The notes under the pieces are model-generated. The model was given only the letters and a program-made list of their open reading frames with translations, was not told the origin of the DNA and searched no databases. The position numbers and the translations under genes are program-made. A DNA stretch of 64,000 nt from a virus (taxonomy: Duplodnaviria > Caudoviricetes): the IMG/VR virus record IMGVR_UViG_3300009151_000071, positions 782 through 64,781 of that record; one strand, given 5' to 3'. Positions 4,718 through 59,678 of the stretch are shown in pieces. Within the stretch, counting starts at the first letter, position 1; each line of letters begins with the position of its first letter.

Positions 4718-6962
4718 TCATTGGTAACGCTGGAGTAAATTGACCCAGCACATTAAATTTAAATACATCTTCTAACCAATCCACTTCGATAATGGTGTGA
4801 GCTGGAATAGTTTCGAACAAAATCTTTTTACTCAGTGGCACTTTAATTAAGTCGCTAATCTTACGACCCAATGGTCTAGCACCCATCTTGCTATTGTAGC
4901 CAACTTTGGCCAGGTGATCTACTGCGACCTCGGTTAGACGAATCTTTATCGACTTTTCACTGAGTAGATCGTTAATTTCGTTAATGAACTTGGCAACAAT
5001 CTTCTTGATACTTATTTCGTCCAGTTTATTAAACTTGCAAATACCATCTAAACGATTGCGGAACTCGGGCTTAAAGAAGTCTTTGACTGCTTTGTCATCT
5101 TCTCCGGATTTTTCCAATTGGCGACCAAAGCCAATATTGTTCTGTTCGTTGGCACTGGCACCCAAGTTACTGGTAAGAATAACAATAGCGTTACGTGCAT
5201 CTGCTTTCTTACCGTTACTTGAAGTAATAATACCTTCGTCCATCAACTGTAACAAAATATTAGTTACATCCGGATGAGCTTTTTCAATCTCATCAAATAA
5301 AATAATGCAGTTGGGATTTTTCTCGATATCACTGATTAACAAACCTCCACCTAGGTTACTATCATCGTAACCAACGTATCCGGGTGGCGCACCAATGAGT
5401 TTGGCAAGAGCATGTTTCTCTTGAAATTCACTCATATCGTACCGCAACAGTTTCATCCCCATACCTTCGGCGAGCAATTTTGCTAACTCAGTTTTACCTG
5501 TTCCTGTTGGTCCCAAGAATAGGAAGTTACCAATTGGCTTGTTCATTGCTTTCAAGCCAGCCCTTGCTACGTAAATCTTTTCTAATACGGTTTCTATTAC
5601 AACATCTTGCCCAAACAACTTAGTTTTAACTGTTTGTTCCAAGTCTACTAGAGTCTTAGTTGATTCGCTACCAATTTGTTCGGCTGGGATCTTTGTGAAC
5701 TTGCTAATAATATCAACAATGTGATTTTTACGGCAAGTCCATGCCATTGCGTTAATTTTTAATTTAGCACACGCAGTATCAATTAAGTCAATGGCTTTAT
5801 CTGGTAATTTCTTGTCTGGTTGATAGCGAACTGATAAGTCTACTGCCGAATCAATTGCTTCATCACTGATTTCACCTCCATGGAATTTTTCAAAGTATTC
5901 ACGTAAGCCACGTAGAATATCTTTAGCAACTGCCGGCGTTGGCTCTTCAATGGTCATACGACAGAATCGTCGCATCAAGGCGCGATCCTTTTCAAAACTT
6001 TGTGTGTATTCTTGCCAGGTAGTACTGGCAAGAACTTTAATGTTACCTTTGGTCAGTGCCGGCTTGATCATGTTGGCAAAGTCTACACTACTGTTACTTC
6101 CAGATCCAGCACCACGCATTTGGTGTGCTTCATCTATAAACAGGATAGTCTTGCCCTTGGCATTTAATGCGCCAATAACATCTTTAAACTTTTCTTCAAA
6201 TTCGCCGCGATACTTGCTACCGGCAAGTAAACTAGCAATGTCTAAGCTATAGACCACGTAGTCACGTAGGTATTCAGGAACACGTCCTTCTGTGATGTTA
6301 CGAGCAAGTCCTTCGGCAATAGCGGTCTTACCTACACCAGCATCGCCTACCATTAATACATTTGATTTGTTGCGTTTAGCAAGTACCTGTGCAATTTCAT
6401 CCAGTTCAAACTCACGTCCTACCACAGGATCAATCTTGCCTTCTTTGGCCTGAACGTTTAAGTTTTCGCAGTATTCTCGCAGGATGTCGTCTGCACGGGC
6501 ATCTGGATTGATACGACGCCCTTTGTTTTCGACATAGTATTGATTGTAGAAATCAACAATCTGACTGCGCTCTAGTCCGTACTTGACAAAAAAGTAACTG
6601 GCATGACTGTTTGCTTCACTTGCGATACTTAAGAAGATATCAATGATTTGTACATGATGACGACCGCTAAACAAGACTTGTGTGAACGCACGATTAAACA
6701 CCCGCTCTAGACTGTGTGTTTTCTTTGGTACATTGTTATCTTGTGTGTTGGCAATGTATGTTTGTTTTTGTAAATAATCTTCTAAGTCTGATAGAAGACC
6801 TTCTGTGTCTGCCCCAAATGCTAATAGCAGATCATGAAATGGTTTATAGCATACTAGTCCATGAGCTAAATGTTCTAAGGTTACATATTCGTGATTAAAC
6901 TTTTTGGCTAACTCGGTTGCATTAGCAATTACTACTTCTATTTCTGGGTTCGGTTGGATCAT
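4674..6962 (-). CDS. clpA: ATP-dependent Clp protease ATP-binding subunit ClpA
   Basis: Clp N-domain (HEYVTLEHL); Walker A motifs GDAGVGKT and GPTGTGKT; GSKYRGEFEE; LIGAPPGYVG; IGF ClpP-docking loop; no ClpB middle domain. Confidence 0.92.
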   Translation of the reverse strand: MIQPNPEIEVVIANATELAKKFNHEYVTLEHLAHGLVCYKPFHDLLLAFGADTEGLLSDLEDYLQKQTYIANTQDNNVPKKTHSLERVFNRAFTQVLFSGRHHVQIIDIFLSIASEANSHASYFFVKYGLERSQIVDFYNQYYVENKGRRINPDARADDILREYCENLNVQAKEGKIDPVVGREFELDEIAQVLAKRNKSNVLMVGDAGVGKTAIAEGLARNITEGRVPEYLRDYVVYSLDIASLLAGSKYRGEFEEKFKDVIGALNAKGKTILFIDEAHQMRGAGSGSNSSVDFANMIKPALTKGNIKVLASTTWQEYTQSFEKDRALMRRFCRMTIEEPTPAVAKDILRGLREYFEKFHGGEISDEAIDSAVDLSVRYQPDKKLPDKAIDLIDTACAKLKINAMAWTCRKNHIVDIISKFTKIPAEQIGSESTKTLVDLEQTVKTKLFGQDVVIETVLEKIYVARAGLKAMNKPIGNFLFLGPTGTGKTELAKLLAEGMGMKLLRYDMSEFQEKHALAKLIGAPPGYVGYDDSNLGGGLLISDIEKNPNCIILFDEIEKAHPDVTNILLQLMDEGIITSSNGKKADARNAIVILTSNLGASANEQNNIGFGRQLEKSGEDDKAVKDFFKPEFRNRLDGICKFNKLDEISIKKIVAKFINEINDLLSEKSIKIRLTEVAVDHLAKVGYNSKMGARPLGRKISDLIKVPLSKKILFETIPAHTIIEVDWLEDVFKFNVLGQFTPALPMIDANGYVQVDSVQS

Positions 6963-17661: not shown

Positions 17662-17724
17662 GGTATTTTTGGCATTTGACTACGGTCAAGCATAAATATG
17701 TTTAAATCCTCAGGAGATACAAAT

Positions 17725-18750
17725 ATGTCTGACCGTAGAAAAATACGTTGGTTAATTGCACACTTTCCCGTACACTTATTCCAACGCACCGCAGAAGCCT
17801 TTACTCAAGAACTAGAAGCATTGCTTCCGGGTCAATTTGAAGTAGAAATTCACACCATTGATTCATACGTTGATCAATACCAAAAATTAGAAGCTCTGCG
17901 TCTTAAAAAGCCAAGCATTCCTGGTCTAGAAGATAGTACTAGTGAACACACAGTTGGCCATATTAGCGATATGCAGGAAAAATGGACAACATTCTTTGAT
18001 GCGTTACGTGCTGGCGATTTTGAAATGAGCCAAACTCAAGTATTCACAGTTGCTGAACAATTAAAGAACAAAGACTTTGCCGCATTAGACTTACCATTCT
18101 TGTTTGACAGTCACGATCACGTTAGTCGTGTATTAGATGGCGAAATTGGTCAAGAAATGTGTAACAAGTTGGCCGAGATTAGTGATGTACGTGGTCTAGC
18201 ATTTACATACTCGGGTGGTTATCGTATCATTGGTAACACAACAGGTATTAAGAGTTTAGACGAACTTGCTGAAAACGAATTAATTGTTTCCAGTGAGCCA
18301 AGTAAAGTATTGTTTAACGAATTAGGTACAACTACATTAAACAAAGCCAGCATTGATGTTGCAAGTTTAGCTGATAGCGGTGCAAAAGGCACAGCAGTTG
18401 AAACAACATACATTCGCTTTACAGGTAAGCATGTTCTAAAAACAAATCACAGCATGTTCTTAACTACTATCTTGACAGGTACTAAGTTTTGGAATACATT
18501 AACCACAGAACAGCAAGAAGCATTTGCTACTGCGGCTAAACGTGTTGCTAAGATTGAACGTCAGTGGTCAGTTGACGATGCCGCACAATACGAGCGCAAT
18601 GCTGTAGCCAATGGTGTGACAATAGTTGATTTGAGTGATGCAGACCGTGAGCGTTTGGCTAAGAAAGCTAAACTAAGCTATCGCCATGTAGAACAAATGG
18701 GTATCGATATGAACTTGGTTAAGCGTATTATTGAACGTCGTAAAGACTAA
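17725..18750 (+). CDS. DctP-like TRAP substrate-binding-fold protein without signal peptide
   Basis: LDLPFLF, LAFTYSGGYR, FWNTLT-EQQ; ATG after AGGAG at 17725. Confidence 0.75.
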   Translation: MSDRRKIRWLIAHFPVHLFQRTAEAFTQELEALLPGQFEVEIHTIDSYVDQYQKLEALRLKKPSIPGLEDSTSEHTVGHISDMQEKWTTFFDALRAGDFEMSQTQVFTVAEQLKNKDFAALDLPFLFDSHDHVSRVLDGEIGQEMCNKLAEISDVRGLAFTYSGGYRIIGNTTGIKSLDELAENELIVSSEPSKVLFNELGTTTLNKASIDVASLADSGAKGTAVETTYIRFTGKHVLKTNHSMFLTTILTGTKFWNTLTTEQQEAFATAAKRVAKIERQWSVDDAAQYERNAVANGVTIVDLSDADRERLAKKAKLSYRHVEQMGIDMNLVKRIIERRKD

Positions 18751-30402: not shown

Positions 30403-30696
30403 TTACCATGCAGATAAGTTAGCACGTACCCATGTATTAGTTGCTACGCAAACATACAAATACGATGAATTATATGCTATTGTACCCGGTATTCCGGCGG
30501 CACTATTACTGACTGGGATAGTAGTAGTAGTTATAGAAATAGCAGAATTGGCTTGAAGTGCGCTAATTTCAGACTGTGCTACTGAAAAGTTATTCTTGAT
30601 TCCACTAAAATTGTCTCGAAAACCTTGTGTGTCGTTATCCTGCCCTGCAATTGGGTAGGTAATGTTAATTGTGCTTGGGTTAATGTTTGATGCCAT
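30403..30696 (-). CDS. Small virion structural protein
   Basis: Same N-terminal module (MASNINP...AGQDN..QGFRDNF) plus C-terminal G-x-x-G-x-I-A-Y...YLYVC-A-NTW-R domain. Confidence 0.65.
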   Translation of the reverse strand: MASNINPSTINITYPIAGQDNDTQGFRDNFSGIKNNFSVAQSEISALQANSAISITTTTIPVSNSAAGIPGTIAYNSSYLYVCVATNTWVRANLSAW

Positions 30697-33600
30697 TATT
30701 TAAATACTCCGTATTGTGGGAACTTCAGATATTTATCCTCACTTCCTGGGGTGTAATATTGATCTCTATTAGAGAAGAATTTAGTAGTGCCAGCGTTAAA
30801 TGTAGTCGCTGATCTGATAGTACCATATGTAATCACGTATACTGAATAGAAAGGAACAGAATACCCTGAATTGGATATATAATTTTTGTTGTAATACAAA
30901 ATTGCGCCAGCAAGACTCTTGCCGCGTAATACTTGAATACGATCATTAGTTTGTACTTGTGTTACAAATGATAATGAAACCGTACCATTAATAATATTAA
31001 TTTTCCAAACACCGCCACGTTGGTTAACTGTGCTAGTGCCTTGTATAAATTCTAAATAGCCAGGGATAACAGAATACATATCGTATGGTGGGCTCTGCCC
31101 TGGTTCGCCGCCAAATCCTTCAAAGGTTCCTGTGGTGATGTCATCACCAATGTAGGCATCAGAATAGTTTACCCACCCATCATATGGTGCGCTAATTGAA
31201 AAATTTTCTTGTTTTGAAAAAATCAAAGTGTCACCATCTTGAAATCCTGTGACTCCATCAATACCGCCGTACACCGAATTGATATATGATACAGGTCGTC
31301 CATTGATCTCGCTAAATGGCACAGTAACAGCGTAGTCAACTTGACTTACAATGTTACCAACGTTATTTCTTGGTAATGCATCAAATGTTGTTTCTTTACC
31401 TTTGATGTATGCTCCGGTGAAAGAATCAAAGTTTGCAGTATAATAATCATCAACTTCGTAACGATCAACTGTAAAATCAATGCTACTAAAGTTTAGTCCT
31501 GCATTCTTGAGTCTATATGCAATTAATTTTGCCGCACCTGGAATAGTATATGCTACTACTACTGCTTTGGTATAACCGAGTGGTGGCAAGAAGGTTGATT
31601 TACTACTAGGATTGGGTTGATTGCTAGTCATCCACGGTGGCAAACTACTTTGGTCAGTGTAGCCAACGCCAGCTTCTAATTGTGCAATCATATTTTCGCT
31701 AGAATTAGGATGTACTATTTTATATTGATTACCGGTAGCATCAATATAAGGATTGTTAATTGTGTATGTTAAGTCTACTGTTTGAGCAGGACCTTTGCCC
31801 ATGGCATTTTCTCCAGGGTCTTTAATTTCAATATAAACTACTTCATACTTTGGTTTATAGAACTCATCAAGTACCGTAGCAGTTTTTACATCGCCAAAGT
31901 TGTATTTTTTAGTCCAGTGATTTTCAATAATGGCATTTTCATATTCATCAAGAGTTCCTGCACGTAGTCCACTTAGGAAAAGCATTTGCATTTTTTCCTG
32001 TACACCAAACCAAGGATCCTCGGCACGGTAAATAACATTTGGATCAAATATATCAGTATTAGAAATAATCGAATTGTATGTTCTACGTTGATCAAACGCC
32101 GGCATTGCTGCCAAGTAAAGATTTTCGTAAGGTATAGGATCAATAATGTTTAATACCAGTTTAAACTCTCTAGCAATACTAGCACTACCGTTGGCTGTTT
32201 GAGCTACAATAGTAAAGTTAAATGTTTTGTCAATGGTTGTTTTAGTACCATCGAGGGTAGTGCCGTAATTGTCAATGGTAAAGGTTTCAAAACTAACTCG
32301 CCCACTAATTTTCCCACTTGATAAAAAATTTAATCCTTGTGGTAAACTGGCTTGTACACCGGGCTTGTCGTATATAAAATAGGTTATGTCGGCGCCAATT
32401 GGACTAAATGCTTCTACATATAATTCGCTTACAGAACCATTATCAATTGCGCCAAGGTCACTTGAAGTAATCCAGCTAACAGTATTATTTACATCACCTA
32501 GTACCGGTAATGTAAAGTATATAGGATTTGAAGAATATTTAACATTGGCTTGAACTTTATTTGCAACTACACCAAAAGTATAATTGGCAATAGCACTGGC
32601 TTGTGGAGTAATGTTGCCATATAGCCAGCCAGTGCCGGCATCTAGACTAATTCCTGGTAAATTAATAGAATAACTTGCATCCGAATTAAAGCTATCAAAA
32701 GGTAAATTATCAAATCCTAGATCTACTCCAGTAACATAGGTGTCAAAGCATCCAGTAGTGTTAGAAATACTATAAGTTACAGGATCATTGTTAAAATCAA
32801 ATCCATCAAATTTATAAGAATAGTAACTTCCTTGACGACCAGCTGGCAAGGTTGTGATATGACCATTTTTAATAATTGGCAAGTAAATGTTTGTAGCGTC
32901 TGTTGTTAGATAGGTATTATTTATTGCATTAGTACTGTCGGCAGTATAGCCAACTCGACTTACAATGTTAATTATGTAATCTTGTGTGTCGTAATTGGCA
33001 CCATCATACGCTTGGATAGTAAAACTATAACTTACATTCTGACTTAATTCATTAAAGTCATATGGGCCAAGATCAAATTCTTGTTCTTGGTTTGCATTTA
33101 AAACTGTACCAGTTATGCTGGTGTTACTAGATAAAATCTGTGACGGTGTTACTGTGTATCGGTTACTACCCAACGAAGCTACAATATAAGTACCGGTAGC
33201 AACACCATTTCCGGTCAAGTACATTTGTTGCTGAATTGATCCGCTAAATGATCCTACTATTAAAGTAGTTCCGGAAATAGTACAATTAGCCATGGTTGCA
33301 GTAGCACCAATTTGAGCAGTATTAGTACCATCATAACCTGCCGGGCCAAACGCACCAATTAGTTCAAGCGGTTCAATGTATCCATATAATAAACCTGTAC
33401 TAGATAAACTAACACCAGCTGGCAATTGGCCTGTTTTAACCGACCATTGTATTTGTACAGCAGGGTTTAATTCAAATACTGTTAGTTGCTGATTATAATA
33501 TGTGCCATCAAAATATTGTCCAAGTAATGTAGTACTGGGCTCAATAATTGGACCGTAGACGTTAGTAATTGTAACACTAAACGAACGATCAATAATGTTA

Positions 33601-34211
33601 TTACCAGTACTAGCACGTACTGTAAATCTGTAAGTTTGATTTTGATCAACCACAACTGGGTTTAAAAATTCTGGAACACCTTGTAAATATCCAGTTGGCA
33701 ATAATTGCATACCTGTTGGCAATTCGCCCGAAACAAAACTGTATGTAACTGCGGCGCTGGTATTTGTTTGAGCCAATAATTGTAGACTATAAAATTCACC
33801 ATTAGGCACAGTTCCCAGTGATCCAGATTTAGTAACCCAAGAAAAATTATTGTTTACAATATTTGATAGAGAAATAGTAAATGCTTCATCAATTGGTGAA
33901 ATATTAGTATTGCTACTAGTAACTCGTACAATAAAATTATATGTTTCTTTGCTTAAAATACCGCTAGTAAGAGATGTACTAGTTGGTGTCCCGGATATAA
34001 CTGCAATGCACTGGGGAATAGCACTACCAGCTGGGCGAATATCAACATTTGATAATGTCATGCCAGTAGGTAATGCACCACCAATTACTGTATAAGTTAA
34101 CGTTGCACCATTGTGCGTATTATCATTTGCTATTAATTCTAAATCTGCAGGAATACCAACTAGTAAACTAGCAATGTTTCCTTTAGGTGTTACCCAACTT
34201 AGTTTTGACAT
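30696..34211 (-). CDS. Large structural protein with repeated Ig-like (He_PIG-type) domains, probably baseplate/tail
   Basis: Repeated G-x-LP-x-G-[ML]-x-L...G...G-x-P and Y-x-F-T-[IV]-x-A motifs; 1171 aa. Confidence 0.7.
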   Translation of the reverse strand: MSKLSWVTPKGNIASLLVGIPADLELIANDNTHNGATLTYTVIGGALPTGMTLSNVDIRPAGSAIPQCIAVISGTPTSTSLTSGILSKETYNFIVRVTSSNTNISPIDEAFTISLSNIVNNNFSWVTKSGSLGTVPNGEFYSLQLLAQTNTSAAVTYSFVSGELPTGMQLLPTGYLQGVPEFLNPVVVDQNQTYRFTVRASTGNNIIDRSFSVTITNVYGPIIEPSTTLLGQYFDGTYYNQQLTVFELNPAVQIQWSVKTGQLPAGVSLSSTGLLYGYIEPLELIGAFGPAGYDGTNTAQIGATATMANCTISGTTLIVGSFSGSIQQQMYLTGNGVATGTYIVASLGSNRYTVTPSQILSSNTSITGTVLNANQEQEFDLGPYDFNELSQNVSYSFTIQAYDGANYDTQDYIINIVSRVGYTADSTNAINNTYLTTDATNIYLPIIKNGHITTLPAGRQGSYYSYKFDGFDFNNDPVTYSISNTTGCFDTYVTGVDLGFDNLPFDSFNSDASYSINLPGISLDAGTGWLYGNITPQASAIANYTFGVVANKVQANVKYSSNPIYFTLPVLGDVNNTVSWITSSDLGAIDNGSVSELYVEAFSPIGADITYFIYDKPGVQASLPQGLNFLSSGKISGRVSFETFTIDNYGTTLDGTKTTIDKTFNFTIVAQTANGSASIAREFKLVLNIIDPIPYENLYLAAMPAFDQRRTYNSIISNTDIFDPNVIYRAEDPWFGVQEKMQMLFLSGLRAGTLDEYENAIIENHWTKKYNFGDVKTATVLDEFYKPKYEVVYIEIKDPGENAMGKGPAQTVDLTYTINNPYIDATGNQYKIVHPNSSENMIAQLEAGVGYTDQSSLPPWMTSNQPNPSSKSTFLPPLGYTKAVVVAYTIPGAAKLIAYRLKNAGLNFSSIDFTVDRYEVDDYYTANFDSFTGAYIKGKETTFDALPRNNVGNIVSQVDYAVTVPFSEINGRPVSYINSVYGGIDGVTGFQDGDTLIFSKQENFSISAPYDGWVNYSDAYIGDDITTGTFEGFGGEPGQSPPYDMYSVIPGYLEFIQGTSTVNQRGGVWKINIINGTVSLSFVTQVQTNDRIQVLRGKSLAGAILYYNKNYISNSGYSVPFYSVYVITYGTIRSATTFNAGTTKFFSNRDQYYTPGSEDKYLKFPQYGVFK

Positions 34212-42019: not shown

Positions 42020-43177
42020 TTAGAAGCGATGTGTCATACCAACCACATAAGCGTTTTGAGTAGTTCCTGTAGAAGCTACCACGCTTGGGTATGTTGCTGT
42101 TCCGTATAGTGAACCATAGTTTGCACCACCAGCACCATATGGAGCAAATCCACTAGTACCTTTGTTGGCAGTAGAAGCTACACCAATGTAAGCAGTGGTA
42201 CGCTTGCTAAAGTTGTAGTCACCCACTAGACTCCAGGTTTGCGAACCATTAGCAGAACTGATATTGTCTTTGAGATTGTAATAACCAGCAGTCACATCAA
42301 CCTTGGAAGTTGCATTATACTTGACACTTACTTGACGTAGATCAAAGTCTGTGTTAGCGGCATTGGCACCATTTGGGTTTTGGAAGTTTGCCCAACCAGC
42401 GGCTACCTTGAACTTGTCAATGGTGTAGTTACCACCGATAGTTGTTGTTTCAGCAGTTGCTAACCCAGCGGCACTATTAGATGTCTGATAACTGGCAGAA
42501 CCATTAAACGCACCACGAGTATAAGCCAATGCATACAAACGACGGCTACTTGCATCCAACGCACCAAAAGTTGTGTTATCGGCTACACCGCCAGTTGTGT
42601 ATTGTACAGAACCTTTGAAGCCTGCAATCACTGGAGTGTCTAAACGAACAGCGTTACTCAGGAATGTTGTACCAGTCATGGTAGCAAGACCAGTCTTGGC
42701 TGTGCTTGTGCCACCAAAGGTAGAACCATCATTCCAGTAGTTCAAAGAACCACCAAAGTTACGGCCTGCGTTAACGTCACCAACTGCAAATGATTCAAAT
42801 GCCAAGTTGTCTTGACGACCTAGAGTCATACGACCCAAGCCGGTGTTGTCTAGATAAACGTTTGCGCCACGGCTGAACACGTTGTTTGCTGTGCCCGAAC
42901 TTGAACTAGCACCTTGGCTACCATCGGCTGGATTGATCTGTGATTCAATTTTGAATCCAGCTTTTGTACCGCCACCTAAATCTTCTGTACCAGTAAAACC
43001 AATACGGCTGGTCCACATTGGTGAACTGAGAACTTGGGTCGCGTTTTGACCTGCTGTTCCAACGTTGGTTGCGTTAACAACACCAATGTCCATGATACCA
43101 TAGACACTAACGTTTGATTGAGCTTGCGCCAAACCAAATGCCGCGGTCAAGCCAACAGCTAATAATAATTTCTTCAT
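42020..43177 (-). CDS. Gram-negative outer-membrane porin (betaproteobacterial type)
   Basis: Signal peptide AQA-QSNVSVYG; SRIGFTGTEDLGGG; YNFSKRTTAY; C-terminal VGMTHRF. Confidence 0.9.
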   Translation of the reverse strand: MKKLLLAVGLTAAFGLAQAQSNVSVYGIMDIGVVNATNVGTAGQNATQVLSSPMWTSRIGFTGTEDLGGGTKAGFKIESQINPADGSQGASSSSGTANNVFSRGANVYLDNTGLGRMTLGRQDNLAFESFAVGDVNAGRNFGGSLNYWNDGSTFGGTSTAKTGLATMTGTTFLSNAVRLDTPVIAGFKGSVQYTTGGVADNTTFGALDASSRRLYALAYTRGAFNGSASYQTSNSAAGLATAETTTIGGNYTIDKFKVAAGWANFQNPNGANAANTDFDLRQVSVKYNATSKVDVTAGYYNLKDNISSANGSQTWSLVGDYNFSKRTTAYIGVASTANKGTSGFAPYGAGGANYGSLYGTATYPSVVASTGTTQNAYVVGMTHRF

Positions 43178-54108: not shown

Positions 54109-54123
54109 AACTTATATTATATG

Positions 54124-54753
54124 TTATTTATTAGTTAAAGTCAATTGATACACAAAACAAATCCGGGGATCTGTATTCTTATGCTCGCTTACTCCATGAC
54201 AGACTTCTGGGCCGTGCATAATCAGGTCTCCCGAACTAGGAGTAATATATTCCTTGTGTATTTCGTCTATGTCCGATGGCAATTTTCCAGTACAGTCTTG
54301 ATCAACAATAATCAAACTGCTACCGCCCGGTGGGTTATTAACATAAAACACAGCAACTAAATCGGGAGTTGTTAATTGATTGTTTGTAGCTACATGATTG
54401 TGACATCGCCCTTGGCTATTAATTTCCATTCGGTTGGTCCAGGACCTATCAACGTCAACTGACTTGACTTTCAACAATTCAGTTGCTTGTTGCTTAATCC
54501 AGGTTAAAAGATCTTGTGCGTCGGGAAGGTTAGCTGGACCTAGATAAGGAATAACTTCGCTAGTTTCGCCTTCGCCGTAGTGGCTGTCCCAAACTTGCCC
54601 ACGATCTCGATTTTTAACTTCAGACAGTTCCATTATGTTACGGATACCTTGATCTAATCCAGCATTGTTGTACCAGTGCTGGTGAGGGCAATGTACTACT
54701 GCAATATCATGGCCAAATAGCTTATACACTTGCATGACCGATTCCTTGTGCAA
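54124..54753 (-). CDS. 2OG-Fe(II) oxygenase-family protein (TIGR02466-like)
   Basis: SWTN, HNH, AVFYV, P-x-x-GDL-x-x-x-P...HGV...R-I-C. Confidence 0.75.
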   Translation of the reverse strand: MHKESVMQVYKLFGHDIAVVHCPHQHWYNNAGLDQGIRNIMELSEVKNRDRGQVWDSHYGEGETSEVIPYLGPANLPDAQDLLTWIKQQATELLKVKSVDVDRSWTNRMEINSQGRCHNHVATNNQLTTPDLVAVFYVNNPPGGSSLIIVDQDCTGKLPSDIDEIHKEYITPSSGDLIMHGPEVCHGVSEHKNTDPRICFVYQLTLTNK

Positions 54754-55879
54754 CTGAGTTCCAATTATGATCGTTAAATGTTTTTAGAACACCCGGTGCT
54801 GGCCTTACAAACTCTTGGGCATGATCAAACGCTTGCCAAAATGGTGAATCGTTACGTCCTGACAAGTAGTGAAAATGCAAGAAGTCGGCAATGTCTCTGT
54901 TCATTGTGTTGACTGCTTGATTGTATTGTCTACGAGCATCTGCGTCGTTGTTTAGTATTCCTGATATTTTTGTAGCCAACAAGTTAAGACTGGCAGTTTG
55001 TACCCAAATGCTAGTTTCTTCTAACGGTTCGCTAAATCCCGAGCTCAGGCCAATGGCAACACAATTTGCTACCCAGGTTTGATCATAACAGCCAGCATCA
55101 AAACTAAATTGCCTAGGGCTCACAATCTCGTGACCGTAATACTCTTCTAACTCTTGATGTATTTGTTCATCGGTAGCACAACTGCTGTCAAAAACATAGC
55201 CGCATCCATATCGTCCCTGTACAGGAATGCGCCACATCCATCCATGGCGCATAGCTACAGCTTCGGTATAGGTTGGCAAATCCACTCCGGCATTGGGTAA
55301 AAAGAACGGCATAGCTCGATCGACTGGCAGTATAGATTGATACGATGTCCATTTAGTAGCATAATGCTTGCCAATGATTAAGCGAGCAAAACCCGAGCAA
55401 TCAAACACAAAATCTACTGGGACTGTAGTTTGATCTTTAAGCACTAAACCAGTAATAGTGTCACTGCCTGTTACAGCAACAACTTCGCTGTCAATTAATT
55501 TAATACCACGTGCTAAGCCTTGTGTTTGTAAAAACTTGGCCAGCAGGTTAGCGTCAAAATGCAACGCTCGATCGCCCATGCCCGAATCTGCTAAAAAATT
55601 ATGATCATAATAATCATTTACTCCACGCCAGTTTACAAAACGTATTCCGTTCTTAACTGTACCACGGGCCTGTGCAATAATGTCTAAAGGATTAATACCA
55701 ATCTGATTTAAAAAGTTTACAAATGGTGGAGTGGTTCCTTCGCCGGCACCTAATATGCCAATTTCACTGCTGGCTATTACAGTAACTTCGCTATAGGGAA
55801 ATTGTGACTTGACAAATAGTGCGGTGAGCCACCCAGCGGTGCCGCCACCAACTACTGCGTATTCAAGATTGGTCTTCAT
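54722..55879 (-). CDS. Flavin-dependent (tryptophan halogenase-family) enzyme
   Basis: VVGGGTAG, GAGEGT, catalytic-Lys motif TVKNGI, FDCSGF, GWMWRIP (WxWxIP), GFSEPLE. Confidence 0.85.
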   Translation of the reverse strand: MKTNLEYAVVGGGTAGWLTALFVKSQFPYSEVTVIASSEIGILGAGEGTTPPFVNFLNQIGINPLDIIAQARGTVKNGIRFVNWRGVNDYYDHNFLADSGMGDRALHFDANLLAKFLQTQGLARGIKLIDSEVVAVTGSDTITGLVLKDQTTVPVDFVFDCSGFARLIIGKHYATKWTSYQSILPVDRAMPFFLPNAGVDLPTYTEAVAMRHGWMWRIPVQGRYGCGYVFDSSCATDEQIHQELEEYYGHEIVSPRQFSFDAGCYDQTWVANCVAIGLSSGFSEPLEETSIWVQTASLNLLATKISGILNNDADARRQYNQAVNTMNRDIADFLHFHYLSGRNDSPFWQAFDHAQEFVRPAPGVLKTFNDHNWNSVAQGIGHASV

Positions 55880-56468
55880 GTATGATTCTAATATCCATTA
55901 CTACAGATATTCTATTTTCTGTGCTTAGATTTGTTTCAACGCTGTGGAATAGATAGTTAGGAAACATAAGTAAGGTTCCAACTTTTGGCTCAACACGGTA
56001 ATAGATTCTGCCGGTGCGCCCTTCGCTATCGGCTGTTACTAAGGGTTCTTGCCATGCTAGATTAACTGAACCTCGGGCATCAAGTAGCAGTAAGTCTCCA
56101 GAGTTAGGCGGGCAGTCAACATAGTAAATTCCTACCATGTCTAGGTCACTGTGGTGATGTGGGGTATCGCACCGACCTGGTGCTATAACATTATGTCTGG
56201 TACGTAAGTCTAAATTGTACTCGGGCCATCGACGTTCTTGTGCAATTGACTCTATAGCATCTACTGTATACTGTCTTAATGCGCTTGTACCGTAACCGGC
56301 AAAGTCCAGGAAACTATAGTGCTTGGTATGTACAGGATTAATCTTCTGTTGTTCGTTGACATGCTGACTAAAGTTTAATCCATCGAGCCTAACTAACTCT
56401 GCTAGTTCCGGCTGGCTCGCTGATAAATCAAAGGTCCAGAGTGGACTACTGAATAACTCTATTTTCAT
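55863..56468 (-). CDS. 2OG-Fe(II) oxygenase-family protein (TIGR02466-like)
   Basis: LFSSP, PHHH, GIYYV, GDLLLLDAR, P-x-x-G-x-L-x-x-FP-x-YL-x-HSV...NRIS. Confidence 0.8.
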   Translation of the reverse strand: MKIELFSSPLWTFDLSASQPELAELVRLDGLNFSQHVNEQQKINPVHTKHYSFLDFAGYGTSALRQYTVDAIESIAQERRWPEYNLDLRTRHNVIAPGRCDTPHHHSDLDMVGIYYVDCPPNSGDLLLLDARGSVNLAWQEPLVTADSEGRTGRIYYRVEPKVGTLLMFPNYLFHSVETNLSTENRISVVMDIRIIHEDQS

Positions 56469-57096
56469 TAATCTTATCTACCACAAGTTGACAGATACGA
56501 TCTTGTTTTTCTGGATCGCTATAAATGCTTTTAGGCAATGTAACTTGAACTACATCGTCTACATAATTTCCAATGCCCGGGAATCTAGTAGCAGTTAAAT
56601 CTTTAATGCCGCAATCAATTACGATAGCATCGTTACCAGCTTCGGCAATAATAGCAGTATCTACAACCAAGAAGGCCTGTGCAGTAGTTACCTGATCTAA
56701 GGTGCGTAAACGGTTAAGTACATCAGCCAATGCTGGCTCTGGATCAGCAATAGGTACAATACTATGACCGCGCAGAACAATGCTGTCTACTGTATCCGGT
56801 TTTAAAAAGAATACGTGTGTTTGTGGAACAATAGCAAAACGGTCGGCTACTTCACGGAATTCGCTAACCGGGGGATGTCCTGCAACAGACCACACTTCGT
56901 AAGGAACGATAATTGTAATATCTCTAGGCGTTCCTGTACTGTCTTTAAATGTAAATGTAAATAGTGTTGGCTTCACCGAAAATGTATATGCTGGCGTAAT
57001 TTGTGCCATCATAACGTCTGTTGGCTCTTGAGCCTTTACATCTACAAATGCCTCAATGCTTTTGCAAGCATCAATGAATTCTTGTAATTGTGTCAT
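56446..57096 (-). CDS. Hypothetical protein in the radical SAM operon
   Basis: 216-aa coupled ORF with GAGG RBS. Confidence 0.65.
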   Translation of the reverse strand: MTQLQEFIDACKSIEAFVDVKAQEPTDVMMAQITPAYTFSVKPTLFTFTFKDSTGTPRDITIIVPYEVWSVAGHPPVSEFREVADRFAIVPQTHVFFLKPDTVDSIVLRGHSIVPIADPEPALADVLNRLRTLDQVTTAQAFLVVDTAIIAEAGNDAIVIDCGIKDLTATRFPGIGNYVDDVVQVTLPKSIYSDPEKQDRICQLVVDKINENRVIQ

Positions 57097-57097
57097 A

Positions 57098-58546
57098 TTA
57101 TTCCTCTACTCGAGATTGGCCGTATACTTCAATATCGTCAATCACTGCAATCTTTTCTGTTATCACCTTAATAGGTATAATCTTTTTCTTAGACTTTTCT
57201 TGGTGGGTTAGTACAGTACCCCAAATGTCTTCACGCTCTGGTGGCAAGTTACCACCTTTGATCATGACAGGAATATATCCTGTCATTTTTTCAATTGCTA
57301 GTGCAAACAACGGAACATTATCACTGTAGGCATTGTTACAAGTGATGTCCCAATACTTGCCATCTAGATACATACAACTGCCCTTGCATAAGTGTAACAC
57401 AGGGCAGTCTTGACAATTGGGTCGATTTAACCAATGTGTGACTGATTTCAATCTAACATTTTCGTAATCGTCTAGATTACCTCCAAGGTGGCTTTCGCCA
57501 TTTTTACTTGTTTCTTTAACGCTTACGTTCTGGCAAGTAACAATATTACCAGTCAAGTCCACAGCAATGGTATGATCGTTGTCCATTCCACACTTCTGTC
57601 CTACGTACTTTGATTCTTTGTGCTTTAATACATCTCGAATAAAGCCATCAATCTTGCCAGTGACACCTGCAAAGTTAATACGGCCGCCAGTGGAGTACAT
57701 GTCATTGAATGATGTTTTGCGATATTCAAAATGTTCTTCTAGTGTGTCTAGGCTGTTGTTAGAACCATCTTCGTCGTAGGCGTCAACCATGGCACCTTCG
57801 CCAATGATAACAGTTGGGTCGCCGGTAAATTCTACAAACCAATCGTATACATCTTTACGGCTGGTGTTACGTCGGTTCATCATGGTATTAAAACTAAAAC
57901 GACCTTGCGGCTTCATCACATTGTAGAATTCCATAAGAATCTTTTTCTTAGCTGGATCCGTAAAAGGATCTGGGCCACGTACTGTTTGATTTGGTCCATC
58001 GTGGCTGATGCTTACATTAAATCCCATGTAGTATAACCAGGATCCTATTTCTCGTGTTAGCAAACTGCCGTTGGTAATAACACTCATCTGTGGACGCTTT
58101 TTCCACGAACTGAATTTTTCTTGCAATGCTTCGGCTAGAGGTTTAAATGTTTTCCAGTACACAAATGGTTCACCGCCCCAGAATTCAATCTTCAGACCTT
58201 TTTCTTCACTGAACTCAAGCACTTCTAACTTGGTCATAAAAGCATCAATGTCTTTTTTACTGGTCTCTGCTGGACGCTCAACAAATTTTTGACTACAGTA
58301 ATCGCAGGAGTAATTGCAACTTAGGCCAAGTTGTATTTTAAGGATACCAATCTTTGTGCTTTTACGTAGAGGGTCGTCTTTGGAAAAAGCACGAACTTCC
58401 GGATAGTAATAACCATCTGGTTCTTTTTCTTCTTTGGGGTATTCATACACATTATTGTCAGACGTAGATAGCGTATTTGTTACGTTGTCGTAATAGAATA
58501 CTTTCTTATCCGTAGCACTACGCTCGGCATGAATTTCAAATTGCAT
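57098..58546 (-). CDS. Radical SAM/SPASM-domain maturase
   Basis: CNYSCDYC (CxxxCxxC), FWGGEP, ITNGSLL, SISHDG; SPASM Cys pattern KCG...TCQ...CQDCPVLHLCKGSC...C; start revised to MQFEIH. Confidence 0.9.
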   Translation of the reverse strand: MQFEIHAERSATDKKVFYYDNVTNTLSTSDNNVYEYPKEEKEPDGYYYPEVRAFSKDDPLRKSTKIGILKIQLGLSCNYSCDYCSQKFVERPAETSKKDIDAFMTKLEVLEFSEEKGLKIEFWGGEPFVYWKTFKPLAEALQEKFSSWKKRPQMSVITNGSLLTREIGSWLYYMGFNVSISHDGPNQTVRGPDPFTDPAKKKILMEFYNVMKPQGRFSFNTMMNRRNTSRKDVYDWFVEFTGDPTVIIGEGAMVDAYDEDGSNNSLDTLEEHFEYRKTSFNDMYSTGGRINFAGVTGKIDGFIRDVLKHKESKYVGQKCGMDNDHTIAVDLTGNIVTCQNVSVKETSKNGESHLGGNLDDYENVRLKSVTHWLNRPNCQDCPVLHLCKGSCMYLDGKYWDITCNNAYSDNVPLFALAIEKMTGYIPVMIKGGNLPPEREDIWGTVLTHQEKSKKKIIPIKVITEKIAVIDDIEVYGQSRVEE

Positions 58547-58553
58547 AGTAACC

Positions 58554-59216
58554 TTATTTTTTGATTTGTTCAACTTTGTTGTCTAATTGCTTTAGTGCTT
58601 CTAACAATAAAGGAATCAAACGTTCGTATCTAACTCTTAGAATATCTGTATCGGGCAAATTAGTACCCAATGCGACAGGGAAATGCTGTTTAACTTTATT
58701 TGCGCTAACACCAACATCACGTTGGGTATCTAATCCTAGGCTTGCGGCCAATTCGTTACCGGTATAATAAAAACCATCTAATTGACGTACAATGTCAAGT
58801 GCGTTTTCAATTACAGTTTCTCGGTTCTTTAGGGTGTCATCGGACCAGAAGCAATCGCAGTTACAATCGCAGTTACAATTATGGCTAGCCGATGCGGAAT
58901 ATGTACAGTTATAAGTACAGTTACAATTACAGTTAGCCTGCAACCACGATTGAGCGTCGCAGTTAGCACAGTTTATAGCGCCAGTGATAAAACAGTTGTC
59001 ACCACCAATATTTCCACAATTACAATTATTAGTACAATTACCGTTATTACAGTTACCAGAGTTATTGTTTTGATAGTATGCACGACCGTGCAACGAATTC
59101 ATATCTGAAACGTTGTCTTTGGTATTGGCTTTAACCCAACTTAGAGAAGGGCTTGATTGTCCCGTTTCTGTTGAAACGTCGCTGAGTGCAATTTGTCCGG
59201 ATGCTGGTAGTGTCAT
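58554..59216 (-). CDS. Cys/Asn-rich protein with C-terminal peptidase S74 intramolecular chaperone domain
   Basis: N-term MTLPASGQIALSDV; 16 Cys in 67 aa; WSDDTLK...ALD-V-L-G-x-Y...GVSA...YERLIPLLLEALK coiled coil. Confidence 0.8.
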   Translation of the reverse strand: MTLPASGQIALSDVSTETGQSSPSLSWVKANTKDNVSDMNSLHGRAYYQNNNSGNCNNGNCTNNCNCGNIGGDNCFITGAINCANCDAQSWLQANCNCNCTYNCTYSASASHNCNCDCNCDCFWSDDTLKNRETVIENALDIVRQLDGFYYTGNELAASLGLDTQRDVGVSANKVKQHFPVALGTNLPDTDILRVRYERLIPLLLEALKQLDNKVEQIKK

Positions 59217-59221
59217 ATAAC

Positions 59222-59227
59222 TATTTA
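59222..59227 (-). promoter_or_regulatory. T4-like late promoter core (TAAATA) for the Cys-rich/rSAM operon
   Basis: gaTAAATAgttatATG; the motif recurs before many late genes (e.g. near 2436, 12580, 27607, 30388, 35851, 36774, 54026). Confidence 0.65.
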
Positions 59228-59245
59228 TCAACGACGTTGAACTAC

Positions 59246-59329
59246 CTATTGCTTGTCAACCCAGTCTTTTAACTCGATCAACAGGTATACTATAACACTA
59301 CCAACTATTAAAAACGCCAACCAACCCAT
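59246..59329 (-). CDS. Small single-TM peptide, 27 aa (MGWLAFLIVG...)
   Basis: Hydrophobic short ORF immediately after 59331..59510. Confidence 0.4.
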   Translation of the reverse strand: MGWLAFLIVGSVIVYLLIELKDWVDKQ

Positions 59330-59330
59330 T

Positions 59331-59510
59331 TTAATTATATCCCTTTACTACATTATTGTCAATCTTGGGATTACCTTTAGCCGCGGCATCTTGATGCGAT
59401 TGTTTGCGTTGTTGCTCTTTATTACGCTCAAGAGGTAATGGACCACAGCCTAATCTTGCCCACTCTTGCTCGGAGTAGTAATACGAGTCCACGGGGTTTT
59501 TATTATCCAT
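59331..59510 (-). CDS. Small hypothetical protein, 59 aa (MDNKNPVDSYYYSEQEW...), absent from ORF track
   Basis: Directly behind TATAAATA. Confidence 0.6.
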   Translation of the reverse strand: MDNKNPVDSYYYSEQEWARLGCGPLPLERNKEQQRKQSHQDAAAKGNPKIDNNVVKGYN

Positions 59511-59523
59511 TGTTTAGTATTTA

Positions 59524-59678
59524 TATAGGAAAGTATTTGAGTACCAATTTATGCGTCCGGGGCTTCCGTGCAATAGCGTATGGTTAGTTATATCAGGACC
59601 TGTTCCACGCCAGTTAGGCCCGTATAGTGTACACGTCTGCACACTTACCTATGTTTCCATCTCAAATACTTACCTATA
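59524..59678 (-). ncRNA. Candidate structured RNA A
   Basis: 17/18-bp terminal inverted repeat enclosing about 120 nt with internal stems. Confidence 0.5.

What the first reader, a model, noticed from the sequence alone, without database searches (positions are those of the whole stretch)
54124..59227. RiPP-like protein-modification operon aimed at a Cys-rich, self-cleaving virion-type protein
Seen: one late promoter motif, then six abutting or overlapping genes: Cys/Asn-rich protein with S74 chaperone, radical SAM/SPASM, unknown 216 aa, 2OG-Fe(II) oxygenase, flavin halogenase, second 2OG-Fe(II) oxygenase. Known: rSAM/SPASM enzymes next to Cys-rich precursors make thioether cross-links (sacti-/ranthipeptides); S74 domains trimerise tail fibres/spikes and autocleave at Ser. 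Inference: the phage cross-links, hydroxylates and possibly halogenates a ~120-aa fibre-tip or adhesin protein, using the S74 domain as a removable follower. I know of no description of such a system.
Basis: partly seen in the sequence, partly recalled or inferred. Interest (0 to 1): 0.9.

Follow-up and report, generated by a model that had tools for sequence, protein, structure and literature searches.

The report
Enzyme cassette modifying phage fibre-tip protein
An uncultured large phage encodes a small asparagine/cysteine-rich protein of the kind that ends many phage tail fibres, together with a dedicated radical-SAM enzyme, oxygenases and a tryptophan halogenase that probably cross-link and decorate it, a chemistry known from peptide antibiotics but not described for virus particles.

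Summary
The six minus-strand genes are real and their domains are as stated. The 'late promoter' is not supported: TATAAATA occurs twice in the window against 7.2 expected.

The radical SAM/SPASM gene lies beside a Cys-rich gene of this family in 34 of 36 related viral loci. In 52 of 80 bacterial, mostly prophage-like, loci it follows a protein ending in (Asn/Asp-Cys) repeats; those tested are tail fibres.

Family members end just after the last Cys repeat, or continue into a swappable module. Of 130 representatives, 8 carry Peptidase_S74, 13 carry Hint, and others carry an unknown 170-aa domain.

The halogenase and the 216-aa protein occur only with forms whose final residue is Trp. That covers 30 natural ends and one exposed by S74 cleavage; none of 31 loci with the 170-aa module has them.

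Best reading: thioether cross-linking of a fibre-tip-type protein, hydroxylation, and halogenation of the terminal Trp. The chemistry and the virion location are inferred, not shown.

This scan reported the same cassette earlier on other DNA. My searches found no paper describing it on a phage.

The parts
59518..59525 (-).
   Evidence: Present, but there are only 2 copies in the window against 7.16 expected. There is no support that it functions.
59334..59362 (-). Sigma-70-type promoter-like site, TTGACA-17-TATAAT, 12 of 12 matches
   Evidence: The region holds 10 such sites against 16.3 in shuffles, so this is a lead only.
59246..59329 (-). 27-aa ORF with one hydrophobic helix; its ATG lies 5 nt after the -10 hexamer; membership in the cassette unknown
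   Evidence: Read from the sequence. Not tested.
59058..59216 (-). N-terminal conserved part (residues 1-53, MTLPxSGxIxxSDVxxExG...) of the Cys-rich protein; leader-like or attachment part
   Evidence: Conserved across 21 aligned relatives and 130 representative clusters. The complex prediction of residues 1-62 with the rSAM gave weak support: score 0.58 against best control 0.00.
58845..59057 (-). Asn/Cys-rich core (residues 54-124), 16 Cys all preceded by N or D, ending NCNCDCNCDCFW; presumed substrate of the enzymes; Trp124 would be the mature C-terminus
   Evidence: AF2 gave no usable model: pLDDT is under 50 over residues 46-135.
58554..58844 (-). Peptidase_S74 intramolecular-chaperone follower (residues 125-220) starting S-D-D-T-L-K
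   Evidence: Pfam PF13884, E 1.4e-4. Matches tail-fibre PHROGs through this part, best 1.1e-14. tblastn finds the C-termini of tail fibres of 28 phage records.
57098..58546 (-). Radical SAM/SPASM enzyme (482 aa from ATG 58546; the ORF as listed starts at TTG 58573)
   Evidence: CxxxCxxC (SCNYSCDYC) and the SPASM motif CxxCx5Cx3C were read from the sequence. The best NCBIfam hit is PapB, 3e-23, far below its cut-off.
56446..57096 (-). 216-aa accessory protein of no known family; found only in halogenase-type cassettes, always directly after the rSAM
   Evidence: No Pfam, NCBIfam or PHROG family. jackhmmer finds it in 33 of 36 halogenase loci and in none of the loci with the 170-aa follower. The AF2 model has pLDDT 85 and no clear fold match.
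55863..56468 (-). 2OG-Fe(II) oxygenase (PF13759), 201 aa
   Evidence: E 1.2e-16. H104, H106, H175 and R186 are conserved in at least 90% of 62 homologues.
54722..55879 (-). Compact flavin-dependent tryptophan halogenase, 385 aa
   Evidence: PF04820, 1.8e-91. The best solved relative is 9luq, 3.4e-53. The catalytic Lys, WxWxIP and EPLE align. About 57 residues are missing after residue 95, and the C-terminal module is missing. These residues are invariant in 4 aligned homologues.
54124..54753 (-). Second 2OG-Fe(II) oxygenase-like protein, 209 aa
   Evidence: PF13759, 26.9 bits against cut-off 27. Homologues follow the halogenase in the related cassettes. H118, H120, H186 and R197 are conserved in at least 90% of 35 homologues.

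Best explanation
This is a phage cassette that makes and chemically matures a small fibre-tip-type protein.

The 220-aa product has three parts: a conserved N-terminal part (residues 1-53), an Asn/Cys-rich core (54-124) and a C-terminal S74 intramolecular chaperone.

The proposed steps, all inferred, are these:
- The radical SAM/SPASM enzyme binds the protein and joins Cys sulfurs to carbons of neighbouring Asn/Asp residues (thioether cross-links).
- The 2OG oxygenases hydroxylate side chains, probably of Asn/Asp.
- The S74 domain helps the chains to assemble, probably as a trimer, and then cuts itself off before Ser125. This leaves ...NCDCFW with Trp124 as the last residue.
- The compact flavin halogenase, with the 216-aa accessory protein, halogenates that Trp.

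The gene content, the conserved linkages and the swappable follower are shown. The chemistry, the order of steps and the virion location are inferred.
For: Substrate-enzyme linkage.
- The Cys-rich family gene lies next to the rSAM in 34 of 36 viral loci fetched through the rSAM. L009 has none, and L037 is cut inside the rSAM.
- In 80 bacterial-genome loci fetched through the rSAM, only 52 of 5,236 ORFs of at least 50 aa carry a run of four or more [NDAQ]C dyads, one per locus.
- 49 of those runs lie within 11 residues of the C-terminus and 1 lies just before a Hint domain. All 50 are on the rSAM strand, 48-3102 nt upstream.

Fibre identity of those proteins.
- Collagen repeats in 3 of the 9 scanned.
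- Tail-fibre PHROGs for L148, with central tail fibre J upstream.
- JWF gp028 (Shufflon_N plus Hint; its record cites T4 gp36) carries RQNCNCDCNCNCSC before the Hint domain, two genes before the rSAM homologue.
- The RSP15 side tail fibre ends NTNCQCGN.

Follower swap.
- Of 130 representative clusters of the family (104 at E <= 1e-10), 8 carry Peptidase_S74 and 13 carry Hom_end_hint.
- 73 are stand-alone by my regex count.
- The S74 and Hint followers start directly after the last Cys repeat.

Chemistry.
- The best NCBIfam matches are thioether-forming SPASM maturases: PapB 3e-23, QhpD 2.4e-18, SCIFF 3.2e-13. Solved relatives are 8vpo, CteB (5wgg) and anSME.
- Position -1 of Cys in 101 family members is N 65%, A 12%, D 10%, Q 5%.
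- NxxcB links Cys to the Asn beta-carbon and tolerates Ala, Gln and Asp (PMC9389541, passages).
- CrpC installs thioethers on a Cys-rich protein (PMC13692751, abstract and passages).

Halogenase.
- In the 36 loci with halogenase identity of 44% or more, 32 have a Cys-family protein. 30 of these end in Trp, 1 has Trp before S74 and 1 is broken.
- 0 of 31 loci with the 170-aa follower have a halogenase.
- After dereplication: 27 Trp-type proteins (one of them broken), all with halogenase; 19 of the other type, none with it.
- SrpI brominates a C-terminal Trp of a RiPP precursor (PMC12615548, passages).

Hydroxylation. Relatives with the 170-aa follower carry an Asp/Asn beta-hydroxylase (PF05118, E 2.5e-8) in 28 of 36 loci.

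Binding. The complex prediction of rSAM with residues 1-62 gave weak support. The median score was 0.58 against a best control of 0.00. That mark was reached by 58 of 80 solved complexes and 2 of 110 mismatched pairs. Scores of 0.60 or under were given by only 7 of those 80 solved complexes and by both mismatches that passed. The partner pLDDT was at least 39 and the runs agreed in at least 39% of their contacts.
Against: - No mass or structural data exist.
- AF2 gave no usable model of the core (pLDDT 50), so neither a trimer nor a fold is shown.
- Every NCBIfam equivalog score is far below its cut-off (PapB 82.6 against 340), so the reaction type is a guess.
- Nothing places the protein in the virion. 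In the window and in the relatives with the 170-aa follower, the neighbours include DNA ligase, PhoH, an epimerase, a PD-(D/E)XK nuclease, a cell-wall hydrolase and a porin. These are not tail genes.
- A sigma-70 consensus lies nearest the cassette, and the late motif is not enriched.
- The halogenase-Trp link is partly built in, because most Trp-type loci were fetched through the halogenase. The loci are also related, so the counts are not independent events.
- L076 has a halogenase and 7 kb of upstream sequence but no Cys-rich gene or rSAM.
- The prophage fibre L130 ends in ...CDCW with no halogenase in its locus.
- The Peptidase_S74 match is marginal (22.5 against 22).
Confidence: 0.55

Rival explanations
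1. The product is not a virion part but a RiPP-like natural product. It would be a large cross-linked peptide used inside or outside the infected cell, for example against competitors or host defences. The N-terminal 53 residues would be a leader that is later removed, and the S74, Hint or 170-aa modules would be cleavable or anchoring followers.
For: The conserved N-terminus followed by a variable Cys-rich core is the classic leader-core layout. The rSAM has about 75 residues before its CxxxCxxC motif, where such maturases carry a leader-binding domain (sequence). The complex test gave weak support for binding of residues 1-62. The neighbours are non-structural. A sigma-70 consensus promoter is present. 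The commonest follower in viral relatives ends in a hydrophobic helix. 73 of 130 representatives are small stand-alone proteins.
Against: The same rSAM family sits beside true tail fibres that end in the same repeat. S74 chaperones are otherwise found at fibre and spike ends. I saw no leader protease or exporter in the 36 viral loci, but only 10 of their flanking families were scanned.
Confidence: 0.2
2. The Cys/Asn ladder is a metal-binding needle, as the His-x-His repeats of T4 gp37 bind iron (recalled, not checked here). The Cys residues stay free to bind metal, and the rSAM enzyme does something else, or helps metal or cluster loading.
For: Alternating x-C-x-C repeats at the far end of trimeric (collagen-repeat) fibres would place the Cys side chains of three chains on one face. 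The core resists monomer structure prediction.
Against: A metal site needs no dedicated enzyme, yet the rSAM is nearly always present. Position -1 is constrained to N/A/D/Q in 92% of 1,781 Cys. That fits an acceptor residue better than a metal ligand set. The nearest enzyme families all modify Cys-rich peptides covalently.
Confidence: 0.1
3. The cassette works as proposed, but the flavoenzyme is not a halogenase in function. Like QhpG in quinohaemoprotein amine dehydrogenase maturation, it would hydroxylate the terminal Trp, giving a Cys-Trp quinone-type cross-link beside the QhpD-like thioethers.
For: The trio of rSAM/SPASM, flavoenzyme and Cys/Asp-rich protein with a Trp next to Cys mirrors QhpD/QhpG/QhpC. 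There are weak NCBIfam hits to QhpD (2.4e-18) and QhpG (7.2e-10). An earlier report of this scan named that system as closest.
Against: The Trp_halogenase score is 307.8 bits against 38.3 for QhpG, whose cut-off is 240. The Lys and WxWxIP, which I recall as the marks that separate halogenases from monooxygenases, are aligned and invariant.
Confidence: 0.1

Closest known systems
CrpC/CrpA of Methanococcus voltae (TIGR04463 family; PMC13692751, abstract and passages read)
   Same: A SPASM radical SAM enzyme with three [4Fe-4S] clusters installs thioether (ranthionine) links on a Cys-rich protein, not a short peptide, encoded next to it. The substrate has a conserved N-terminal part and C-terminal cysteines.
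   Different: It is archaeal and cellular, and the word 'phage' does not occur in the paper. The window's rSAM scores 50.5 bits against the family cut-off of 525. In CrpA the Cys precedes the acceptor residue. There is no S74/Hint follower, halogenase or oxygenase.
NxxcB/NxxcA (streptococcal radical SAM RiPP; PMC9389541, passages read)
   Same: A beta-thioether forms between Cys and Asn. The acceptor tolerates Ala, Gln and Asp, the same four residues that fill position -1 of Cys here. In NCNC runs every Cys also has an Asn at -3, the NxxC spacing.
   Different: The substrate is a short peptide with one link. The library holds no model, so membership is untested. Family-wide, Asn at -3 is only 30% against 65% at -1.
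PapB/PapA (freyrasin ranthipeptide; NCBIfam NF047865)
   Same: It is the best-scoring curated family, over nearly the whole enzyme (residues 78-402). I recall its chemistry as Cys-to-Asp beta-carbon thioethers.
   Different: The score is 82.6 against a cut-off of 340, so the window's enzyme is not a member. PapA is a short peptide with CxxxD motifs (recalled).
QhpD/QhpG/QhpC maturation of quinohaemoprotein amine dehydrogenase
   Same: It combines an rSAM/SPASM enzyme, a flavoenzyme and a small Cys/Asp-rich protein with a modified Trp. The modification is of a protein, not a peptide.
   Different: The scores are far below the cut-offs (66 against 453; 38.3 against 240). The flavoenzyme here has the halogenase hallmarks. 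There is no dehydrogenase partner.
SrpI/SrpE and other peptide halogenases (PMC12615548, passages read); viral halogenase VirX1 (PDB 6qgm)
   Same: A flavin-dependent halogenase acts on the C-terminal Trp of a ribosomal precursor. Halogenases are known in phages: VirX1 is among the solved relatives, E 3.3e-44.
   Different: SrpE is a short RiPP precursor. The enzyme here lacks about 57 internal residues and the C-terminal module, and it always comes with a 216-aa partner of unknown fold.
S74 intramolecular chaperone of endosialidases and tail fibres (Pfam PF13884)
   Same: A C-terminal domain beginning S-D-x-x-x-K that assists trimer folding and cleaves itself off (recalled). It matches the C-termini of tail fibres of 28 phage records.
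   Different: Here it follows a 124-aa Cys-rich protein, not a long fibre. In relatives it is exchanged for Hint domains or is absent.

Membership tests
Radical SAM / SPASM subfamily | CxxxCxxC cluster motif and a Radical_SAM core | tested here: met
   SCNYSCDYC is in the sequence. Pfam Radical_SAM gives E 1.3e-6 at 29.1 bits, just under the cut-off of 29.5. There are 46 NCBIfam rSAM families at E <= 0.01.
Radical SAM / SPASM subfamily | C-terminal SPASM domain with the Cys motif for two auxiliary clusters | tested here: met
   TIGR04085 scores 35.7 bits against cut-off 27 over residues 328-403. CQDCPVLHLCKGSC (CxxCx5Cx3C) was read. The Cys residues are invariant in 20 homologues.
PapB ranthipeptide maturase (NF047865) | Score at or above the curated equivalog cut-off | tested here: not met
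   82.6 bits against 340.
CrpC-type maturase (TIGR04463) | Score at or above the curated cut-off | tested here: not met
   50.5 bits against 525.
QhpD / QhpG (TIGR03906, NF049967) | Scores at or above the curated cut-offs | tested here: not met
   66 against 453, and 38.3 against 240.
NxxcB/NxxcA | Sequence membership of the enzyme; a Cys-Asn beta-thioether in the product | not testable with these tools
   The libraries used hold no model. The product chemistry needs mass spectrometry.
Peptidase_S74 intramolecular chaperone (PF13884) | Pfam gathering score; Ser and Lys five residues apart at the start of the domain | tested here: met
   22.5 bits against 22, which is marginal, over profile positions 1-55 of 58. 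S-D-D-T-L-K was read. Matches tail-fibre PHROGs up to 1.1e-14. Cleavage itself is not tested.
Flavin-dependent tryptophan halogenase (PF04820) | Pfam score; GxGxxG, catalytic Lys, WxWxIP and the conserved Glu | tested here: met
   307.8 bits against 21. All motifs align to 9luq and are invariant in 4 homologues.
Flavin-dependent tryptophan halogenase (PF04820) | C-terminal substrate-binding module of the free-Trp enzymes | tested here: not met
   The protein has 385 aa against 497-554. The alignments stop near chain residue 407-441, and about 57 residues are missing after residue 95. This fits a peptide or protein substrate, which is an inference.
2OG-FeII_Oxy_5 (PF13759) | Pfam gathering score | tested here: met
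   First oxygenase: 61.3 against 27. Second oxygenase: 26.9 against 27, just under. Both keep an H-x-H...H...R pattern in at least 90% of homologues.
Phage tail fibre / virion protein | Presence in virions, or homology of the non-S74 part to a known fibre | tested here: inconclusive
   The PHROG tail-fibre hits run mainly through the S74 part. The core's likeness to fibre ends rests on the shared (N/D-C)n run and the shared rSAM partner. No cultured phage carries the small family. No proteomics is available.

The most novel reading that the evidence does not exclude
Phages use antibiotic-type (RiPP) enzymology on their own particle. A dedicated radical SAM enzyme staples the Asn-Cys ladder at the far end of tail fibres or of a small fibre-tip protein. 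Self-removing S74 or Hint modules then expose the new C-terminus. In one lineage a halogenase puts chlorine or bromine on the exposed last tryptophan. The host-binding tip of a virus would thus be a covalently cross-linked, halogenated structure.
Probability: 0.4. Interest if true: 0.9.

Novelty: new variant of a known kind. Interest (0 to 1): 0.8.

Why it matters
Enzymatic cross-linking or halogenation of a phage fibre was in none of the papers my searches returned. If the reading holds, a large and unrecognised set of phages and prophages chemically hardens or tunes the part that touches the host. There are 2,852 rSAM relatives at E <= 0.001 among the 8,000 candidates scored, 218 stretches in bacterial genomes and 130 substrate clusters. 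Many are from freshwater Betaproteobacteria.

That would bear on host recognition, on particle stability and on the annotation of 'orphan' radical SAM and halogenase genes in viromes. It would also offer compact protein-modifying enzymes, such as a 385-aa halogenase for a C-terminal Trp, with a natural self-cleaving tag. The question is directly testable by co-expression and mass spectrometry.

Tried and rejected
- Near-identical DNA in cultured phages: none. The small Cys-rich family by tblastn in cultured phages: none (the low-complexity filter may hide it).
- AF2 of the Cys-rich protein with 21 sequences: pLDDT 50, core under 50, no usable model and no fold search made.
- ESM Atlas for the 170-aa follower and for the 216-aa protein: nothing usable.
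- Fold of the 216-aa protein. The model is good (pLDDT 85). Foldseek against PDB gave no match at E <= 0.001. VIA-align wide gave a best Z of 5.1 (CsgE, 73 residues, rmsd 3.1), within the range the tool calls a common arrangement. No fold is assigned.
- The 216-aa family is not related to the ~275-aa family that sits between fibre and rSAM in 54 of 80 bacterial loci. The ~275-aa family's profile matched nothing among the viral-locus ORFs and window proteins; the 216-aa profile matched only two post-rSAM ORFs in the bacterial loci, L122 and L125.
- Idea that the S74-bearing fibres of cyanophage S-SSM7 and Pseudomonas phage Milchi also carry Cys ladders: they do not.
- Idea that the cassette sits in a tail-gene module in this window: not supported.
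- T4-type late promoter: rejected as unsupported.
- Papers. Four terms (radical SAM, tail fiber, phage, thioether) gave 2 papers. I read passages of one and saw only the listing of the other; neither looks relevant. SPASM + bacteriophage + RiPP gave 6, irrelevant by title. Ranthipeptide + phage gave 50, of which I saw 15 titles, none on fibres. Radical SAM + tail fiber + prophage gave 20, none relevant by title. Radical SAM + receptor-binding protein + bacteriophage + post-translational modification gave 0.
- Supplements were not opened, and papers outside the library were not searched.
- Sequencing-run tools were not used.

Full report
**What is there.**
On the minus strand of window 54124-59231 lie six ORFs that abut or overlap.

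- The first encodes a protein whose likely start is ATG 59216 (MTLPASG..., as in every relative). It has a conserved N-terminal part, then a core in which all 16 Cys follow Asn (14) or Asp (2). The core ends NCNCDCNCDCFW and is followed by a Peptidase_S74 domain that begins S-D-D-T-L-K (Pfam E 1.4e-4, 22.5 bits against 22).
- The second is a radical SAM enzyme with a full SPASM domain (TIGR04085, 35.7 against 27). Its best curated matches are thioether-forming peptide maturases, all far below their cut-offs (PapB 3e-23). Its solved relatives are 8vpo, CteB and anSME.
- The other four are a 216-aa protein with no family, a PF13759 oxygenase (1.2e-16), a 385-aa tryptophan halogenase (1.8e-91) and a second PF13759-like protein just under the cut-off.
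- The halogenase keeps GxGxxG, the catalytic Lys, WxWxIP and EPLE. It lacks about 57 internal residues and the C-terminal module of the free-tryptophan enzymes.

The window is a 64.8-kb viral contig judged 18% complete. It has no near relative among cultured phages.

**The promoter.**
TATAAATA is at 59518-59525. It occurs twice in the window against 7.16 expected, so I do not accept it as evidence of late expression. A perfect sigma-70 consensus lies at 59362-59334. I found no convincing terminator on the minus strand inside the cassette.

**The enzyme and the Cys-rich gene travel together.**
- A scan of viral contigs with the rSAM gave 36 loci at 60-73% identity.
- Clustering of their ORFs put a member of the Cys-rich family in 34 of the 36. 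L009 has none, and L037 is cut inside the rSAM. A PF13759-type oxygenase is in 32 of the 36.
- A profile of the N-terminal part plus core found 130 representative clusters, 104 of them at E <= 1e-10.
- Across 101 of these, the residue before Cys is N 65%, A 12%, D 10% and Q 5%.

**The same enzyme sits beside true tail fibres.**
- tblastn found rSAM homologues at about 44% identity in Achromobacter phage JWF and Ralstonia phage RSP15, both inside tail-fibre regions.
- JWF gp028 is a fibre protein that reads ...RQNCNCDCNCNCSC and then runs into a Hint domain.
- The RSP15 side tail fibre ends NTNCQCGN.
- A scan of bacterial genomes gave 218 relatives. The best 80 loci are mostly from Limnohabitans, Polynucleobacter and other freshwater Betaproteobacteria.
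- In those 80 loci, 52 of 5,236 ORFs carry four or more [NDAQ]C dyads in a row, one per locus. 49 of the runs lie within 11 residues of the C-terminus and 1 lies before a Hint domain. All 50 are on the rSAM strand, 48-3102 nt upstream.
- Many of the 28 loci without such an ORF have little or no sequence upstream of the rSAM, or a slightly different run.
- Of 9 such proteins scanned against Pfam, 3 have collagen repeats and 1 has Hint. L148 matches tail-fibre PHROGs and follows a central tail fibre J gene.

**The follower is swappable and starts exactly at the end of the repeat.**
- Among the 130 representatives, Pfam finds Peptidase_S74 in 8 and Hom_end_hint in 13.
- By my regex count, 73 are stand-alone, 26 of them ending in Trp; 9 have S74, 5 of them directly after Trp; and 8 have an unknown ~170-aa module that begins SKIIC and ends in a hydrophobic stretch.
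- P0128 has the same N-terminal part and core followed by two Hint domains.
- In the window, S74 cleavage before Ser125 would leave ...CFW. That is the kind of end that stand-alone relatives have by nature (...CACACW...CACDCW).
- Two unrelated self-cleaving modules at one junction argue that the follower is temporary.

**The halogenase and the 216-aa protein go with a terminal Trp.**
- In the rSAM-first set, only L004, L005 and L006 have a halogenase next to a Cys-rich gene. L009 has a halogenase fragment at its edge but no Cys-rich gene. Those three are the only loci whose Cys-rich protein ends in Trp or has Trp before S74. None of the 31 loci with the SKIIC follower has a halogenase.
- A halogenase-first scan gave 422 viral relatives, of which the best 80 were kept.
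- In the 36 loci with 44% identity or more, 32 hold a Cys-family protein. 30 end in Trp, 1 is the S74 form (the same contig as L004) and 1 is broken.
- Of the 4 loci without one, 3 lack upstream sequence. L076 has 7 kb of upstream sequence and neither gene.
- The 44 loci with more distant halogenases have no Cys-rich gene.
- After dereplication, 27 Trp-type proteins (one of them broken) all have halogenase, the 216-aa family and rSAM. The 19 SKIIC-type proteins have only the rSAM.
- The 216-aa family was found by jackhmmer in 33 of the 36 loci, always directly after the rSAM, and never in SKIIC loci.
- These counts are not independent events. Most Trp-type loci were fetched through the halogenase.
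- One prophage fibre (L130) ends in ...CDCW without a halogenase.

**Mechanism.**
I commit to thioether cross-linking by the rSAM, by analogy with three known systems:
- NxxcB makes a Cys-Asn beta-thioether and tolerates Ala, Gln and Asp (PMC9389541, passages).
- PapB.
- CrpC installs thioethers on a Cys-rich protein (PMC13692751, abstract and passages).

Hydroxylation of Asn/Asp is suggested by the oxygenases. It is also suggested by an Asp/Asn beta-hydroxylase (PF05118, 2.5e-8) in the SKIIC-type cassettes. Halogenation of the last Trp has a precedent in SrpI (PMC12615548, passages).

A complex prediction of the rSAM with residues 1-62 gave weak support only. The median score was 0.58 against a best control of 0.00. 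That mark was reached by 58 of 80 solved complexes and 2 of 110 mismatches, but scores of 0.60 or under are more often wrong than right unless the guess was likely beforehand. The partner pLDDT was at least 39, and the runs agreed in at least 39% of contacts.

None of the chemistry is shown.

**What speaks against the reading.**
The core could not be modelled. No curated family cut-off is reached for any specific maturase. In this window and in the close viral relatives the neighbours are not tail genes. A non-virion RiPP-like product therefore remains a serious rival.

**Novelty.**
The enzyme kinds are known. Their use on a phage fibre-type protein, the S74/Hint follower swap and the halogenase-Trp pairing were in none of the papers my five searches returned. 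Earlier reports of this scan describe the same cassette on other genomes and reach a similar reading. I reached mine from my own calls. From them I took the lead to the CrpC paper and the QhpD/QhpG comparison.

Noticed in passing
window 42020-43177 (-): Phage-encoded Gram-negative porin (Porin_4, E 1.9e-42) with a signal-peptide-like N-terminus. This porin type and the bacterial relatives of the rSAM hint at a betaproteobacterial host.
   Followed up: partly
window 17698-18750 (+): DctP-type TRAP-transporter solute-binding protein (E 1.8e-27) on the opposite strand to most genes; an auxiliary metabolic gene.
   Followed up: no
window 4674-6962 (-): 762-aa Lon-like ATP-dependent protease (phrog_4871, E 7.9e-235).
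   Followed up: no
window 30696-34211 (-): 1171-aa protein with He_PIG Ig-like domains (E 1e-12), flanked by 526- and 537-aa proteins with no clear family. They may be virion proteins, but they lie 20 kb from the cassette.
   Followed up: no
window 59246-59362 (-): A perfect sigma-70 consensus (12 of 12) whose -10 hexamer ends 5 nt before the ATG of a 27-aa single-helix ORF. This may be a leaderless small membrane protein just upstream of the cassette.
   Followed up: no
window 54116-54144 (-): A second sigma-70-like site (11 of 12) inside the 3' end of the last oxygenase gene.
   Followed up: no
L030:11574-12356 and 27 other rSAM-first loci: An Asp/Asn beta-hydroxylase (PF05118, E 2.5e-8) belongs to the cassettes whose Cys-rich protein carries the SKIIC follower. 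Those cassettes lack the halogenase.
   Followed up: partly
L021:5584-6108 and relatives: The commonest follower in viral relatives is an unknown ~170-aa domain (SKIICxKLxxxGxM...) with a hydrophobic C-terminal stretch. It has no Pfam family and no Atlas lead.
   Followed up: partly
L148:4375-5232 and 53 other bacterial loci; L001:4317-5132: A ~275-aa family of unknown function lies between the Cys-tailed fibre gene and the rSAM in prophage-type cassettes (54 of 80 loci). By eye, RSP15 gp047 ends with a similar motif. It is unrelated to the 216-aa family.
   Followed up: partly
L005:10502-11977, L023:12888-14405, L024:12800-14320: Some cassettes carry an extra ~500-aa gene. By eye its N-terminus looks like a B12-binding radical SAM enzyme. 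Not tested.
   Followed up: no
L040:5269-5856: In cyanophage S-SSM7, a 2OG-Fe(II) oxygenase is annotated three genes after the S74-ended tail fibre, which has no Cys ladder.
   Followed up: no
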